Part shown: piece by piece, positions 23,022-27,828 of the stretch
Layout of the letters: every line of letters begins with the position of its first letter
How positions within the stretch are numbered: position 1 is the first letter of the stretch
Assembly: GCF_009914755.1 (NCBI RefSeq)
Contig: NC_060939.1
Reading direction: 5' to 3' (one strand)
Length of the DNA stretch: 64,000 nt
Source: the human T2T-CHM13v2.0 reference genome, Homo sapiens
The notes under the pieces: model-generated
Told to the model about the DNA's origin: nothing
The model's database searches: none
Seen by the model: only the letters and a program-made list of their open reading frames with translations
Translations under genes and position numbers: made by a program

Positions 23022-23328
23022 TTATCAAGAAAAATAATATAAAATATGTTATGTAGGTCCGTAGCTACATTTAGAAAAAAACTGGGAAGAAAGAACCAAA
23101 CAGCAGTCCTGTGACAAGTGCTGGGGATTTATAGTTGGCTACACAGTCAATCGGATGATATGATTGCTAAATGTAAACTAAACTAAATGGGTTAACCCAG
23201 TTAACCCATTGTTAACTGGGTTAACAATGTCAGGATAAACAGAGGCACTATTCCTTCCACCCTCAACACTACACAGACTCATTTTGATCCTGGGAATATT
23301 TTTTAGAGGGTTGTTTCAGTTACATATT

Positions 23329-23667
23329 TGATATGGTTTTGGCTCCACCTAAATCTCATCTTGGATTGTACTCTTATAATTCCCACGTTATGGAAGGGAC
23401 CCAGTAAGAGATGATTTGAATCATGGGGGCGCTTTCCCCTATACTGTTCTTGCGGTAGTGAATAAGTCTCATGAAAACTGATGGTTTTATCAGGGGTTTT
23501 CACTTTTGCATCTTCCTCATTTTTTCTTGCCACTGCCATGTAAGATGTGCCTCCCACCATGATTCTGAGGCCTCGCCAGTCATGTAGAACTGTAAGTCCA
23601 ATTAAACCTCTTTTTCTCCCCAGTCTGGGGTATGTCTTTATCAGCAGCATGAAAACAGACTAATACA
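23329..23667 (+). mobile_element. THE1A-like MaLR LTR in the 5' LTR position of the HERV-L
   Basis: tgatatggttttggct...gaatcatggggg...ttttcacttttgcatcttcctcatt...gcatgaaaacagactaataca. Confidence 0.85.
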
Positions 23668-23672
23668 GATTT

Positions 23673-23687
23673 TGGTACCAGGAGTGG
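23673..23687 (+). other. Primer-binding site, tRNA-Leu type
   Basis: TGGTACCAGGAGTGG is complementary to the 3' end of tRNA-Leu(TAA), the ERV-L primer. Confidence 0.8.
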
Positions 23688-24390
23688 TTCTAGAGGAACA
23701 GAATATTAAGGACGGAGTTCTTTTGCTGGTTTTGGGGTTTCTGGAGTTGGCTGCTTTATATGATTAGACCCAAAAATACTAAGGACTCTACTTCTAATTG
23801 TATGGAGAACGCTGCTGGTGCTTGGCATAGACTGTTTAGAGAGTTCCTAGAAGTGAAACTGATAGGAAGCCTACTGCATTCCTACTCAATTTATATAAAG
23901 AGAAAACTTCTAGGCCAAATGGACAAAAGATGAATTTGAATTATAAAACAGAGGATCATGACCCCTCAATCAATTTCCAGACTTGAGCCAGTTTACAGAC
24001 ACAGAACCCCCTGAATGAAAGGGAGACTGGGTCCCCTTGAGGAAGGATCCCACTACATTCCTGACAATTTATTTATGCACTGAATTTTTCTCCCATCCTT
24101 CCCCAAGGAGACCTCTGGCCTTTTACTAGGGTAACTGTGCATTGGGGAAAGGGAAATGATCAGACATTTCGGGGACTACTGGACACTGGCTCCGAGCTGA
24201 CGTTGATTCCAGGAGACCCAAAACGTCATTGTGGTCCTCCAGTTAAAGTAGGGTCTTATGGAGGTCAGATAATTAATAGAGTTTTAGCTCAGGTCTGACT
24301 TACAGTGGGTCCAGTGGGTCCCTGGACTCATCCTGTGGTCATTTCCCCAGTGCCAGAATGTATAATTGGCATAGACATACTTAGCAACTG

Positions 24391-25293
24391 GTGGAACCCC
24401 CAATTGGCTCCCTGACTGGTAGGCTGAGGGTTATCATGGTAGCAAAGGCCAAATGGAAGCCATTAGAGCTGCCTCTACCTAGAAAAATAGTAAATCAAAA
24501 ACAATATTGCATCCCTGGAGGGACTGTGGAGATTAGTGCCACCATCAAGGACTTGAAAGACGCAGGGGTGATGATTCCCCCCACATCCCCATTCAACTCT
24601 CCCATTTGCCCTGTGCAGAAGACAGATGGATCTTGGAGAATGACAGTGGATTATCGTAAGCTTAACCAAGTGGTGAGTCCAGTTGCAGCTGCTGTACCAG
24701 ATGTGGTTGTACTGCTTGAGCAAATTAACACATCTCCTGGTACTCGGTATGCAGTCATTGACTTGGCAAATGCCTTTTTCTCCATTCCTGGCCATAAGGC
24801 CCACCGGAAGCAATTTGCCTTCAGCTGGCAAAGCCAGCAATATACCTTTACTGTCCTACCTCATGGGTATATCAACTCTCTGGCTTGGTGTCATAATCTT
24901 TTTCAGAGAGACCTTGATCGCTTTTCGCTTCCACAAGATATCACACTGGTCCATGACATTGATGACATTATGCTGATTGGATCCAGTGAGCAAGAAGTAA
25001 CAAGCACACTGGACTTACTCATGAGATATTTTTGTGCCAGAGGATGGGAAATAAATCCAACTAAAATTCAGGGAACTTCTACGTCAGTAAAATTTCTACG
25101 GGTCTGGTGGTGTGGGGCCTGTCGAGATAGTCTTTCTAAGGTGAAGTATAAATTACTGCATTTGGCCCCTCCTACAACCAAGAAAGGCACAATGCCTAGT
25201 GGGTCTGTTTGGATTTTGGATGCAACACATTCCTCATTTGGGTGTGTTACTCCAGCCCATTTACTGAGTGAGCCGAAAGGCTGCCACTTTTGA
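24391..25293 (+). pseudogene. HERV-L reverse transcriptase fragment
   Basis: SPFNSPICPVQKTDGSWRMTVDYRKLN, IDLANAFFSIP, YTFTVLPHGY, and HDIDD (YxDD motif with Y>D). Confidence 0.9.
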
Positions 25294-26024
25294 ATGGGGT
25301 CCAGGACAGGAGAAGGCTCTGCAATAGGTTCAGGCTGCTGTGCAAGCTGCTCTGCCACTTGGGCCATATGACCCAGCAGATCCAATGGTGCTTGAGGTGT
25401 GTGGCTGATAGGGATGCTATTTGGAGCCTTTGGCAGGCCCCCAAAAGTGAATCACAGCGGAGGCCTCTAGGATTTTGGAGCAAGGCCCTGCCATCTTCTG
25501 CAGATAACTACTCTCCTTGGGAGAGACAGCTCTTGGCCTGTTATTGGGCTTTGGCATAAACTGAACATTTGACTATGAATCATCAAGTCACCATGTGACC
25601 TAAACTTCCTATTAAGAACAGAGTACTTTCTGACCCATCTAGCCATAAAGTGGGTCATGCACAGCAGCATTCCGTCATCAAAGGAAGTGGTACATATGTG
25701 ATCAGGCTCAAGCAGGTCCTGAAGGCACAAACAAGTTACTTGAGGAAGTAACTCAAATGCCCATGGTCTCCACTCCTGCCACCCTGCCTTCTCTCTCGTA
25801 GCCTGCACCGACGGCCTCATGGGGAGTTCCCTATGATCACCTGACAGAGGAAGAGAAGACAGTGGAATGGCCTTTTGAAGTAACAATTACAATGCCAACT
25901 AGGTGACAATACTTTGAGGGGCTGGGGTAAAGTTCTCCAGAAGGCTGTGTATGCTCTGAATCAGCATCCAGTATATGGCACTGTTTCTCCCATAGCTAGG
26001 ATTCATGGGTCCAGGAATTAAGGG

Positions 26025-26543
26025 GTGGAAGTGGAAGTGGCACCATTCACCATCACCCCTAGTGATCCACTAGCAAAATTTTTGCTTCCTGTTCCCAGGA
26101 CATTACTCTCTACTGGCCTAGAGGTCTTTGTTCCAGAGGGAGGAACCCTGCCACGAGGAAACACAACAATGATTCCATTAAACTGGAAGTTAAGATTGCC
26201 ACCTGGACTCTTTGGGCTCCTCCTAGCTTTAAGGCAACAGGCTAAGAATGGAGTTACAGTGTTGGCTGGGGTGGTTGACCCGGACTATCAAGATGAAATC
26301 AGTCTACTACTACACAACAGAGGTAAGGAAAAGTATGCATGGAATACAGGAGATTCATTAGGGTGTCTCTTAGTATTACCATGCCCTGTGATTAAGGTCA
26401 ATGGGAAACTACAACAGCCCAATTCAGGCAGGACTACAAATGACTCAGACCCTTCAGGAATGAAGGTTTGGGTCATTCCACCAGGAAAAAACCACGACCT
26501 GCTGAGGTGCTTGCTGAAGGCTAAGGGAATACAGAATGGGTAG
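26025..26543 (+). pseudogene. HERV-L dUTPase region
   Basis: LRLPPGLFGLL...GVTVLAGVVDPDYQDEISLLLHN dUTPase motifs, 3' of pol as in ERV-L. Confidence 0.85.
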
Positions 26544-26920
26544 TAGAAGAAGGTAGTCATCAATACCAACTACGACCACATGACCAGCTGCAGAAACGAG
26601 GACTGTTTAACTGTCATGAGTATTTCCTCCTTTTGTTAAAAACATGTTTGTGCATGTATATACTTGTACTAAGAAAATATCTTCATTTTATTTCCCTTCT
26701 CCTTTATCACGTGACATAAGATTTTATTGATTTCCCATCCGCATTTAAGCATTGTTAACTTTAAGTAATAGTATTTGGGTTGGGGATTGGTGTGTTTCCG
26801 GTTGTATGAAGAATAGTTGCATTATGTTAGGCATAATTATGACCTTATTATTGTCTTTATTTGAAGATTATGTATGACCTCAGGAGATGTGTGTGGGTTC
26901 AAGTTGACAAGAGGTGGACT

Positions 26921-27828
26921 TGCGATGGTTAATACTGAGTGTCAACTTGATTGGACTGAAGGATGTAAAGTCTTGATACTGGGTGTGTCTGTGAGGGTGT
27001 TGCCAAAGGAGATTAACATTTGAGTCAGTGGGTTGGGGAAGGCAGATGACCCTTAATGTGGGTGGGCATAATCTAATCAGCTGCCAGCACAGCTAGAGTA
27101 TAAGCAGGCAGAAAAATGTGAAAAGAGAGGCTGGTCTAGCCTCCCAGGCTACATCTTTCTCCCGTGCTGGATGCTTCCTGCCCTCAAACATCAGATTCCA
27201 GGTTCTTCAGTTTTGGGACTTGGACAGGCTCTCCTTGCTCCTCAGCTTGCAGACAGCCTGTTGTGGGACTCTGTCACACAATAAACCCATATATATATAT
27301 ATATTCCAAGGACTCTTTCATGTCTTATGTTATATACCCAGGCATTTCCTCTCAACTTTTTATTTTGAAAAATTTCAAGTGTATAGAAAAGATAAAGGAA
27401 TTGAACTATATATATATATATGAGTTTATTAAGTATTAACTTACACCAGAGCACTCCAACACCAGCTGCCAAATGACTGCAAATGCAAGCGATATTCAAA
27501 GGGAGACAAATGGAAGAATCACCTAGCCGAATCCAGTCAACACACACTATCATGAGAGATAATAATGCAGTAAATTATTTTTTAAGCAACTGCATTTGGG
27601 TGATTTGTTATACAGCAATATTGTATTAGTCAGGGTTCTCTAGAGGGACAGAACTAGTAGGAGACATGTCTCCTACTAGTTCTATCCCTGTAGAGAACCC
27701 TGAATAATATATATATGTCTATATATATTAGACATATATATATGTAACCCTGACTATATATACACACACACACATATATATATATATATATGTCTTCTAC
27801 TAGTTCTGTCCCTCTAGAGAACCCTGAC
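26921..27828 (+). mobile_element. MLT2A1 3' LTR, rearranged 3' end
   Basis: tgcgatggttaatactgagtgtcaacttgattgg start; colinear to about 27270. Terminal segment gttctgtccctctagagaaccctgactaataca occurs inverted (27622-27666) and twice forward (27667-27711, 27791-27828). Confidence 0.88.

What the first reader, a model, noticed from the sequence alone, without database searches (positions are those of the whole stretch)
23324..27666. Chimeric provirus: THE1A (MaLR) 5' LTR + HERV-L body + MLT2A1 3' LTR within one target-site duplication
Seen: a complete THE1A-like LTR (23329-23667) abuts, base for base, the HERV-L internal start and tRNA-Leu PBS, while the 3' LTR is MLT2A1. ATATT (23324-23328) precedes the THE1A TG. 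The true MLT2A1 terminus lies inverted at 27622, and the five bases beyond it (27617-27621) also read ATATT on the minus strand. Joining the flanks gives tgtttcagttac-ATATT-gctgtataacaaatcacccaaa, a continuous old MLT1 terminus, i.e. the empty site. Established: reverse transcription normally yields two identical LTRs, and MaLRs are non-autonomous elements thought to use ERV-L machinery. Inference: one integration of a hybrid cDNA formed when THE1A and HERV-L RNAs were co-packaged and a strand transferred between them at the shared U5 end GACTAATACAG. This would be a physical record of MaLR hitch-hiking in ERV-L particles, and it puts HERV-L sequence behind a THE1 promoter. Caveat: the LTR-PBS spacer is HERV-L type, so the crossover maps to the U5 microhomology rather than to the PBS.
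Basis: partly seen in the sequence, partly recalled or inferred. Interest (0 to 1): 0.9.

Follow-up and report, generated by a model that had tools for sequence, protein, structure and literature searches.

The report
ERV-L remnant with mismatched LTRs
An old, broken retrovirus remnant on human chromosome 15 has a left end from a helper-dependent element family (THE1/MaLR) and a body and right end from the ERV-L family, within one matching 5-base target duplication, so it may record the two families meeting during one round of copying about 40 million years ago.

Summary
Window 23329-23667 is a full THE1-type (MaLR) LTR. From the next base on, the sequence follows ERV-L proviruses: spacer, primer-binding site, leader, pol pieces, then dUTPase after pol. 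The 3' LTR from 26920 is the LTR type of those ERV-L kin. The switch lies in an 11-base stretch at the U5 end that both families share. ATATT flanks the 5' LTR. The only intact 3' LTR terminus (27622-27666, inverted) is also followed by ATATT, with a chance of about 0.002.

The remnant is old, about 40 million years (range 35-50). It is heavily broken and has no envelope gene. No second copy of the junction was seen among the hits scored.

The best reading, at confidence 0.5, is one integration of a THE1-by-ERV-L recombinant cDNA, followed later by a complex rearrangement of the 3' end seeded at a TA run. The standard plus-strand transfer at the primer-binding site does not predict the ERV-L-type spacer. 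An exchange after integration at the shared end motif would also keep the duplication.

Two checks stayed open because of caps: the empty-site join against kin of the old flanking LTR, and primate orthologues.

Family names below ERV-L and THE1 are recalled, not tested.

The parts
23312..23323 (+).
   Evidence: Identity as the tip of the old LTR is not verified: there were no kin in hand.
23324..23328 (+). Left copy of the 5-base target-site duplication, ATATT (host DNA).
23329..23667 (+). 5' LTR, THE1-type (MaLR), 339 bases, complete from first to last base, with three small private deletions.
   Evidence: 39 of 39 non-self hits cover the LTR only, at 83-86% identity; alignment A4; private branch 0.077.
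23668..26919 (+). ERV-L internal body, given as one part. It holds the spacer, primer-binding site and leader, then broken remnants of gag, pro, pol and the dUTPase that follows pol. There is no room for an envelope gene. Bounds of the genes are not given.
   Evidence: Pfam RVT_1 71.1 bits, RNase H-like 26-28 bits, dUTPase 42.7 bits. Also.
26920..27304 (+). This is the main part in normal orientation, ending in a TA-dinucleotide run. It lacks its last ~90 bases here.
   Evidence: 78.8-86.4% to four kin LTRs; alignment A3; kin LTR positions 1-349 map here.
27305..27408 (+). Patch set between two TA runs: a 90.3% same-strand copy of window 31770-31872, 4.4 kb downstream.
27409..27445 (-). TA run plus a displaced piece of the 3' LTR (kin LTR positions ~364-397) in inverted orientation.
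27446..27616 (-). Right neighbour, inverted: 171 bases of the old flanking LTR. Its far end repeats 27831-27860 in inverted orientation (90%).
   Evidence: (I5).
27617..27621 (-). Right copy of the target-site duplication. It reads ATATT on the minus strand.
27622..27666 (-). The only copy of the 3' LTR terminus with its last base intact, in inverted orientation (kin LTR positions 397-437).
   Evidence: (90-93% to kin).
27667..27828 (+). Two further copies of the LTR terminus in normal orientation (27667-27709 and 27790-27828, the second lacking its last bases), with TA-rich sequence between them. The palindrome centre lies at 27666/27667.
   Evidence: I2 93%, I3 97%, D5 92%. Also.
27829..28485 (+). 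Right neighbour in normal orientation: the rest of the old flanking LTR, interrupted by a minus-strand Alu (~27966-28268) with a 19-base duplication. The 3' limit is approximate.
   Evidence: (D6, I5).
23329..27828 (+). The remnant as a whole, including its rearranged 3' tail.

Best explanation
One integration, about 40 million years ago, of a recombinant cDNA. Its left LTR was copied from a THE1-type (MaLR) template. Everything from the spacer onward, including the right LTR, was copied from an ERV-L template. The two templates or their DNA intermediates were together during reverse transcription, and synthesis switched between them in the 11-base stretch at the U5 end that both families share. 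The ERV-L integration machinery then inserted the product into an old LTR and made one 5-base duplication (ATATT).

Because its LTRs differ, this copy is a first-generation product. It could not have passed on its structure.

Later, roughly 10-25 million years ago on very few sites, replication errors seeded at the TA run inside the 3' LTR changed the tail. They inverted the last part of that LTR together with 171 bases of flank, made short inverted duplications, and patched in 103 bases from 4.4 kb downstream.

Shown: the anatomy, the junction, the duplication and the family of each part. Inferred: where the recombination took place (inside a particle), the order of template switches, and the path of the later rearrangement.
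For: - 5' LTR family: 39 of 39 scored non-self hits cover only the LTR. It aligns over its full length with 3 THE1-type kin in A4 and with 7 kin in the distance alignment.
- Body and 3' LTR family: pol pieces with dUTPase after pol; 3 of 3 ERV-L kin match from 10 bases before the LTR end through the leader; 4 of 4 kin LTRs match the 3' LTR.
- Junction: it lies inside the shared 11 bases. Two of 2 THE1 kin have a different spacer and a different internal sequence.
- Duplication: the same 5-base flank at both outer edges, with a chance of about 0.002. Proviruses carry 4-6 bp duplications (PMC11359688, passage).
- No sign of separate elements: no trace of THE1 internal sequence (0 hits for 2 queries) and no second ERV-L-type LTR body anywhere in the window.
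- Age of the two LTRs: similar private divergence, 0.077 and 0.094 K2P, each with a standard error of about 0.015, as expected if both arrived together.
- Timing from the literature: THE1A is simian-specific, the youngest MaLR, and more than 40 My old (PMC10735291, sections 6, 8 and 11). HERVL LTR divergence starts at 13% (PMC4724089, passages). The activity periods could therefore overlap.
- Uniqueness: no other copy of the junction among 39 scored hits, as expected for a product that cannot copy its own structure.
- Precedent: template switching between co-packaged RNAs is established for retroviruses (PMC5086612, passages).
Against: - The spacer between LTR and primer-binding site is the ERV-L type (3 of 3 kin). 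A plain intermolecular plus-strand transfer at the primer-binding site would carry the THE1-type spacer, so an extra switch must be assumed.
- The 3' junction survives only in an inverted block inside a tangle with three terminus copies. The path of that rearrangement is not resolved.
- The join of the two flanks into one old LTR was not tested against kin (searches found none; no search was left).
- No orthologous loci could be examined.
- Both LTR families end in the same ten bases, so exchanges after integration at that motif would leave the same duplication.
- This is one locus only. Only 40 of 8758 candidates were scored, so the lack of sister copies is weak evidence.
Confidence: 0.5

Rival explanations
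1. Exchange after integration. An ordinary THE1 element (or solo LTR) was integrated at ATATT. Later its inner part and right LTR were replaced by ERV-L sequence from another copy or a free cDNA during DNA repair. Both joints fell in the ten-to-eleven-base motif that ends both LTR types, so the THE1 duplication was kept.
For: Both junctions with ERV-L sequence, after the 5' LTR and at the 3' terminus, lie exactly in the end motif shared by the two families. The duplication alone cannot tell this reading from a recombinant cDNA. The locus has shown itself prone to repair and replication errors.
Against: It needs two joints on 10-11 bases of identity around more than 3.5 kb of unlike sequence. 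By recall, homology-driven repair in mammals rarely does this, whereas reverse transcriptases do switch on such short matches. No THE1 internal remnant is left (0 hits for 2 queries). The private divergence of the two LTRs is similar.
Confidence: 0.2
2. Two separate insertions, THE1 and ERV-L, next to or within each other, followed by deletions that removed the sequence between their ends. The matching ATATT is a coincidence.
For: Nested insertions and deletions are common in old repeats. The element has other large deletions. The flanks are AT-rich.
Against: A 5-base match at two fixed places has a chance of about 0.002, or about 0.005 allowing for three terminus copies. Both edges are exact LTR ends. 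The 171-base right flank overlaps the onward old LTR by 30 bases, so little or nothing of the flank is missing on that side. No leftover of a second LTR of either family was found.
Confidence: 0.1
3. The chimeric joint was made by an inversion. A THE1 solo LTR sat at ATATT, and an ERV-L provirus lay in the opposite orientation about 170 bases away in the same old LTR. They were joined by an inversion between their inverted end motifs. This would also explain why the flank is inverted and abuts an inverted ERV-L-type terminus.
For: It predicts the observed order: 3' LTR, then inverted flank, then inverted ATATT, then inverted ERV-L-type terminus.
Against: It predicts a whole second ERV-L-type LTR in inverted orientation after that terminus, and a complete normal terminus on the first. 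Neither is there: only about 45 bases are present, and the kin LTR body maps once in the window. It also predicts a second 5-base duplication for the ERV-L, which is not seen. Several further deletions would be needed.
Confidence: 0.07
4. Part of the 3' tail (palindrome, TA runs) is an assembly error, so the inverted terminus and its flank are not real.
For: TA-rich palindromes are hard to assemble. Only one assembly was read.
Against: The copies differ from each other by 3-10%, as aged duplicates do and unlike collapsed or mis-joined reads. By recall, the reference is a telomere-to-telomere assembly from long reads. The 5' joint is unaffected either way.
Confidence: 0.03

Closest known systems
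Canonical HERV-L provirus (ERV-L body between two MLT2-type LTRs)
   Same: Body order is pol then dUTPase, with no envelope gene. The spacer, primer-binding site and leader are like those of 3 kin. The 3' LTR is like those of 4 kin. The duplication is 5 bases. PMC4724089 (passages): HERVL goes with MLT2, and nearly all HERVL have a dUTPase at the end of Pol.
   Different: The 5' LTR belongs to another family. Nearly all of gag is missing, and about 0.9 kb of the pol side is missing relative to one kin. The 3' LTR tail is inverted and patched.
THE1A / MaLR element (THE1 LTRs around a short internal part with only a putative gag; PMC10735291, section 3)
   Same: The 5' LTR matches over its full length. 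The end motif is shared, and the primer-binding site is similar.
   Different: There is no THE1 internal sequence and no THE1 3' LTR. The spacer is not the THE1 type.
Mosaic or recombinant HERVs (PMC4724089: 'mosaic forms are common', with recombinants that then multiplied)
   Same: Parts come from two retroelement lineages within one proviral frame.
   Different: Published mosaics that multiplied have matching LTR pairs. Here the two LTRs differ, which marks a first-generation product, and the partners are a helper-dependent family and its presumed helper. That paper leaves three MaLR-containing chains unexplained, one with a MuERV-L-Pol-like part. Its place is in a supplement I could not open, so it may or may not be this locus.
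Recombinants between helper-dependent and autonomous retroelements in mouse (ETn/MusD, VL30 with MLV; recalled, with ETn/MusD named in PMC1331978 passages)
   Same: A non-autonomous element relies on an autonomous relative's proteins. Co-packaging makes recombinants possible.
   Different: Those cases are documented by experiment or by many copies. Here there is a single fossil.
Rearrangements at palindromic AT-rich repeats and replication template switching (recalled)
   Same: Inverted segments with short inverted duplications, and a templated patch from nearby.
   Different: This applies only to the later damage of the 3' tail, not to the chimeric joint.

Membership tests
ERV-L / HERV-L (class III endogenous retrovirus) | pol with reverse transcriptase and RNase H | tested here: met
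   RVT_1 71.1 bits (cut-off 29.6); RT_RNaseH 26.1 bits (cut-off 24.8); the best named relative is a baboon 'reverse transcriptase domain-containing protein', 70% identity. No source name says ERV-L.
ERV-L / HERV-L (class III endogenous retrovirus) | dUTPase placed after pol, at its 3' end | tested here: met
   dUTPase 42.7 bits (cut-off 22) on the last long open piece before the 3' LTR; the molecule names of the 34 PDB matches read as dUTPases (one is a retroviral Pol entry, one is unnamed), best E 6e-9. PMC4724089 (passage): nearly all HERVL have it there, while HERVS, HERVL32 and HERVL66 do not.
ERV-L / HERV-L (class III endogenous retrovirus) | LTRs of the MLT2 type | tested here: inconclusive
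   The 3' LTR matches the LTRs of 4 of 4 proviral kin chosen by body likeness. The 5' LTR does not. The label MLT2A1 itself could not be tested, because no named library was on hand.
ERV-L / HERV-L (class III endogenous retrovirus) | Primer-binding site for tRNA-Leu | not testable with these tools
   No tRNA gene in the window and no fetch left. The site equals that of kin within 1-2 bases in 2 of 3 kin; the third has a gap there. PMC4724089 (passage): of 87 canonical HERVL, 35 use Leu and 33 use Met.
ERV-L / HERV-L (class III endogenous retrovirus) | No envelope gene | tested here: met
   Only a few hundred bases lie between the dUTPase piece and the 3' LTR. There was no family hit there.
THE1 / MaLR LTR | Full-length likeness to the abundant THE1-type LTRs | tested here: met
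   8758 candidates; 39 of 39 scored non-self hits are at 83-86% over the LTR..
THE1 / MaLR LTR | Kin elements have their own short internal part, unlike ERV-L | tested here: met
   2 of 2 kin that carry internal flank differ from ERV-L after the shared end stretch and primer-binding site. That the kin lack pol was not tested; only 500 bases were held.
THE1 / MaLR LTR | Subfamily THE1A: four indels relative to THE1B (PMC10735291, section 11) | not tested
   No THE1B copy or named reference was in hand. By recall the LTR has the short THE1A form.
Provirus from a single recombinant cDNA | Same target-site duplication at both outer edges | tested here: met
   ATATT on both sides, 5 of 5 bases; chance about 0.002.
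Provirus from a single recombinant cDNA | Flanks join into an uninterrupted pre-insertion sequence | tested here: inconclusive
   The right flank is part of the old LTR that runs on at 27831 (30-base overlap). The 17 bases on the left could not be checked, as no kin were found.
Provirus from a single recombinant cDNA | Empty site in outgroup species, and no intermediate stage in any species | not testable with these tools
   No primate genomes were on hand.
Provirus from a single recombinant cDNA | Joint at a stretch of identity between the parents | tested here: met
   11 shared bases at the U5 end.

The most novel reading that the evidence does not exclude
This locus is a first-generation THE1A-by-HERV-L recombinant, made when replication intermediates of the helper-dependent MaLR and of ERV-L were side by side in one particle. 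If so, it is a physical fossil that names ERV-L as the machine that copied THE1A in early simians.
Probability: 0.45. Interest if true: 0.7.

Novelty: new variant of a known kind. Interest (0 to 1): 0.55.

Why it matters
MaLRs make up about 4% of the human genome. They carry at most a gag-like frame, so they must have been copied by another element's enzymes (PMC10735291, section 3). ERV-L is the usual suspect because of sequence kinship, but direct evidence is lacking.

A provirus with one MaLR LTR and one ERV-L LTR inside a single target duplication would show that nucleic acids of the two families met during one round of reverse transcription. It would also show that one integrase accepted one end of each.

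My searches of the held papers found no such element described. The finding also gives a clear search image for a genome-wide census: unlike LTRs, a shared duplication, and a joint at the U5 end.

For safety: the remnant is old, lacks an envelope gene, has lost nearly all of gag, and is broken in pol. It is not young, not near whole, and not close to any virus of people or livestock.

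Tried and rejected
Reclassifying the 5' LTR as an ERV-L-type LTR: rejected. 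Kin ERV-L LTRs find nothing there, and the two LTRs of the window do not match each other.

Taking the body for THE1 internal sequence: rejected. THE1 kin differ after the shared stretch, and the body has pol and dUTPase.

Looking for kin of the old flanking LTR in the window and in all loci, with sensitive blastn and nhmmer: nothing. The empty-site join stays open.

The masked-repeat table in /data carries no names and masks the element only in patches, so it gave no help.

The second genome search returned only hits to the far part of the query. I therefore had to reach the 5' ends of kin by offset cuts. One of the two 3'-side cuts (L010) missed its LTR.

The protein search gave no source name with ERV-L in it.

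A possible own duplication of the old LTR (AGGGT before 23312, AGGGA after about 28485) is only 4 of 5 bases at an end I could not fix. I give it no weight.

The inversion-made-the-joint model is kept as a weak rival. The standard plus-strand transfer at the primer-binding site is rejected as the sole mechanism because of the spacer.

Not used: the scan of viral contigs (human-like records are left out, so a blank would mean little), fold tools, structure prediction and the Atlas.

Supplements of PMC4724089, which list loci of unexplained MaLR-containing chains, are closed and may bear on novelty.

Full report
WHAT IS THERE. I read window 22900-28600.

At 23329-23667 lies a 339-base LTR. In a search of the whole reference with this LTR plus the next 397 bases, 8758 candidates were found and 40 were scored. 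One was the window itself. All 39 others cover only the LTR part of the query (query end between 339 and 364 of 736), at 83-86% identity. None runs on into the sequence behind it.

The LTR aligns from first to last base with three such kin and has three small private deletions. Two kin that carry internal flank (L002, L003) show what normally follows this LTR type: a six-base spacer, a primer-binding site, and an internal sequence unlike that of the window. This is the THE1/MaLR kind. The subfamily label THE1A fits my recall of its short form. The four indels that define it against THE1B (PMC10735291, section 11) could not be tested, because I held no THE1B copy.

THE BODY. Ten natural open stretches of the plus strand were scanned against Pfam. 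Three had hits:
- reverse transcriptase, 71.1 bits;
- RNase H-like, 26.1 and 28.0 bits (the first above its cut-off, the second just below);
- dUTPase, 42.7 bits, on the last long stretch before the 3' LTR.

Seven stretches had none. For the dUTPase piece, the molecule names of the 34 PDB matches read as dUTPases, one filed as a retroviral Pol and one unnamed. A dUTPase after pol is the mark of HERVL among human class III elements (PMC4724089, passage). A protein search with the reverse-transcriptase piece gave 13 hits among 138 candidates, with 1228 left out as unnamed. The best was a baboon protein at 70% identity. No source name says ERV-L, so the family name rests on the anatomy and on DNA kin.

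THE KIN. A second reference search with the first 397 bases of the body found 1623 candidates, of which 40 were scored. The 39 non-self hits (86-91%) all cover only the far part of the query. So the window has lost a stretch that the kin have.

I cut the 5' sides of three such kin. In all three, an LTR of about 437 bases is followed by the same five-base spacer, primer-binding site and leader as in the window. Identity over 182 bases is 87.9, 85.2 and 80.8%, and each match begins 10 bases before the end of the window's 5' LTR.

Alignment A2 shows the joint. Up to an 11-base stretch (the last ten bases of the LTR and the first base after it) the window follows the two THE1 kin. From there it follows the three ERV-L kin. 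The 11 bases are the same in both families.

THE 3' LTR. Window 26920-27269 matches the LTRs of the three kin at 86.4, 85.6 and 78.8%. A fourth kin, cut on its 3' side, matches the end of the body and the LTR in one piece at 85.4% over 884 columns. The 3' side is therefore an ordinary ERV-L end. The window's two LTRs have no likeness to each other.

STATE OF THE GENES (counts only).
- gag: one deletion of about 1.43-1.44 kb relative to 3 of 3 kin removes nearly all of it. There were no family hits in the two open stretches left.
- pro: one open stretch, no family hit at E 0.01, and at least one stop before the next piece.
- pol: the reverse-transcriptase part is open for about 300 codons. The RNase H part lies in another frame, so there is at least one frameshift. 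Between it and the dUTPase piece there are six stops in their common frame, and no integrase family hit among the four stretches scanned there. Between shared landmarks the window is about 0.9 kb shorter than one kin.
- dUTPase: one open stretch with the family hit.
- Envelope gene: none, and no room for one.

The remnant is old and far from whole.

THE TARGET SITE. ATATT stands directly before the 5' LTR (23324-23328).

The plus-strand 3' LTR breaks off in a TA run at about 27304. Mapping a kin LTR onto the window gives:
- positions 1-349 at 26921-27269, plus strand;
- positions 364-397 at 27441-27408, minus strand;
- positions 397-437 at 27662-27622, minus strand.

There are two more plus-strand copies of the last 40 bases, at 27671-27709 and 27787-27828. 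Only the minus-strand copy has its last base. Beyond it, on the minus strand, come ATATT (27621-27617) and then 171 bases (27616-27446) whose far end repeats, inverted, the start of the old LTR-like repeat that runs on from 27831 (90% over 30 bases).

The chance of ATATT at one fixed place is 0.0018-0.0019. With three terminus copies to choose from, it is about 0.005. So the outer edge of the THE1-type LTR and the outer edge of the ERV-L-type LTR carry the same 5-base duplication. This is the size that proviruses make (4-6 bp: PMC11359688, passage).

THE LATER DAMAGE. The 3' tail reads, left to right:
1. 3' LTR up to a TA run;
2. a 103-base patch that is a 90.3% copy of window 31770-31872;
3. 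a TA run;
4. an inverted LTR piece;
5. the inverted flank;
6. the inverted ATATT;
7. the inverted terminus;
8. a palindrome centre at 27666/27667;
9. a terminus copy, TA-rich sequence, and a terminus copy without its last bases;
10. the old LTR from about 30 bases before the point where the inverted flank ends.

This pattern consists of an inverted segment, short inverted duplications at both ends, and a templated patch from nearby, all hinged on a self-complementary TA run. By recall, it is what replication template switching at AT-rich palindromes leaves.

The duplicates differ by 3-10% on very few sites, which suggests roughly 10-25 million years. That is well after the insertion. I could not reduce the tail to a unique series of steps.

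AGE. From pairwise K2P distances under a star tree, the private branch of the 5' LTR is 0.077 (7 kin; kin branches 0.041-0.066; these kin were the best-scoring hits, so they are biased low). The private branch of the 3' LTR is 0.094 (4 kin; kin branches 0.074-0.112). Each has a standard error near 0.015, so the two do not differ.

At 0.2% per million years per LTR (half of the 0.4% LTR-to-LTR rate used in PMC4724089, passage), this gives about 38 and 47 million years. These are upper bounds, in that source-lineage differences are included.

THE1A is simian-specific and the youngest MaLR. [quoted passage not shown] HERVL is among the oldest HERV groups, with LTR divergence from 13% upward (PMC4724089, passages). 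An insertion about 40 million years ago (range 35-50), in early simians, fits all of this.

HOW IT AROSE. An element with two unlike LTRs cannot be the offspring of a chimeric parent, because reverse transcription of one RNA makes two like LTRs. This copy is itself the primary product.

The simplest account is one integration of a recombinant cDNA. Making a whole THE1 LTR on the left and a whole ERV-L LTR on the right needs DNA intermediates of both elements at once. It also needs the ERV-L minus strand to finish on a THE1 plus-strand strong-stop DNA. If that transfer used only the primer-binding site, the spacer would be the THE1 type, and it is the ERV-L type (3 of 3 kin). So the switch must have come a few bases later, in the shared 11 bases. 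That is plausible for a reverse transcriptase but is inferred, not shown. Template switching between co-packaged RNAs is well documented in general (PMC5086612, passages).

RIVALS.
(a) Exchange after integration at a resident THE1 element. Both joints with ERV-L sequence lie in the ten-to-eleven-base motif that ends both LTR types, so the THE1 duplication would survive. I rate this lower. It needs two joints on very short identity around kilobases of unlike DNA, and no THE1 internal remnant is left.
(b) Two insertions plus deletions, with a chance match of the duplication (about 0.005).
(c) An inversion between inverted end motifs of a THE1 solo LTR and a nearby opposite-strand ERV-L. This explains the inverted flank but predicts a whole second ERV-L-type LTR, which is absent.
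(d) An assembly error in the tail. This is unlikely, because the copies have aged apart.

WHAT STAYS OPEN, AND WHY.
- Both reference searches are spent, and each scored only 40 candidates. I therefore could not fetch kin of the old flanking LTR to test the join, and could not run a census of like joints.
- No primate genomes are on hand.
- The tRNA-Leu assignment was not testable (0 tRNA genes in the window). PMC4724089 reports Leu for 35 and Met for 33 of 87 canonical HERVL.

IN PRINT. Six searches of the held library found no description of a THE1- or MaLR-by-ERV-L provirus with unlike LTRs.
- PMC10735291 (discussion) says its model leaves out 'recombination between repeats, mosaic form'.
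- PMC4724089 (passage) reports three unexplained MaLR-containing chains, one with a MuERV-L-Pol-like part. Its locus is in a closed supplement.

VERDICT. This is a new variant of a known kind (recombinant ERVs). It is worth a census and an orthologue check.

Noticed in passing
window 27306-27408 and 31770-31872: A 103-base same-strand copy (90.3%) of sequence 4.4 kb downstream sits between two TA runs inside the 3' LTR. It looks like a templated patch from a replication or repair error. I could not check whether the source is itself a dispersed repeat.
   Followed up: partly
window ~27966-28268, with 27947-27965 and 28269-28287: A minus-strand Alu in the old flanking LTR, with a perfect 19-base target duplication.
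   Followed up: no
window ~22701-23021: A plus-strand Alu ending in an A-run about 300 bases upstream of the remnant. It pairs as an inverted repeat (83% over 132 bases) with the Alu at ~27966.
   Followed up: no
window 23191-23225: A small inverted repeat (85.7% over 35 bases) in the left flank.
   Followed up: no
window ~31940-32010: A tetranucleotide microsatellite just downstream of the source of the patch.
   Followed up: no
protein P0007: A 177-residue protein filed under Helicobacter pylori, from a 6-kb contig, is 81% identical to the reverse-transcriptase piece of this human remnant. It is most likely human DNA in a bacterial assembly. I did nothing further with it.
   Followed up: no
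L010:1325-1681 (minus strand): A THE1-like LTR (77.7% to the window's 5' LTR) lies where the 3' LTR of an ERV-L kin on chromosome 12 was expected. No ERV-L LTR was found in the 2.2 kb cut. This is probably a later insertion or a truncated kin, but it is worth a look in a census of THE1/ERV-L contacts.
   Followed up: no
window 33478-33568 (minus strand): A weak match (69.9% over 93 bases) to the last part of the 5' LTR, probably a fragment of another MaLR LTR.
   Followed up: no
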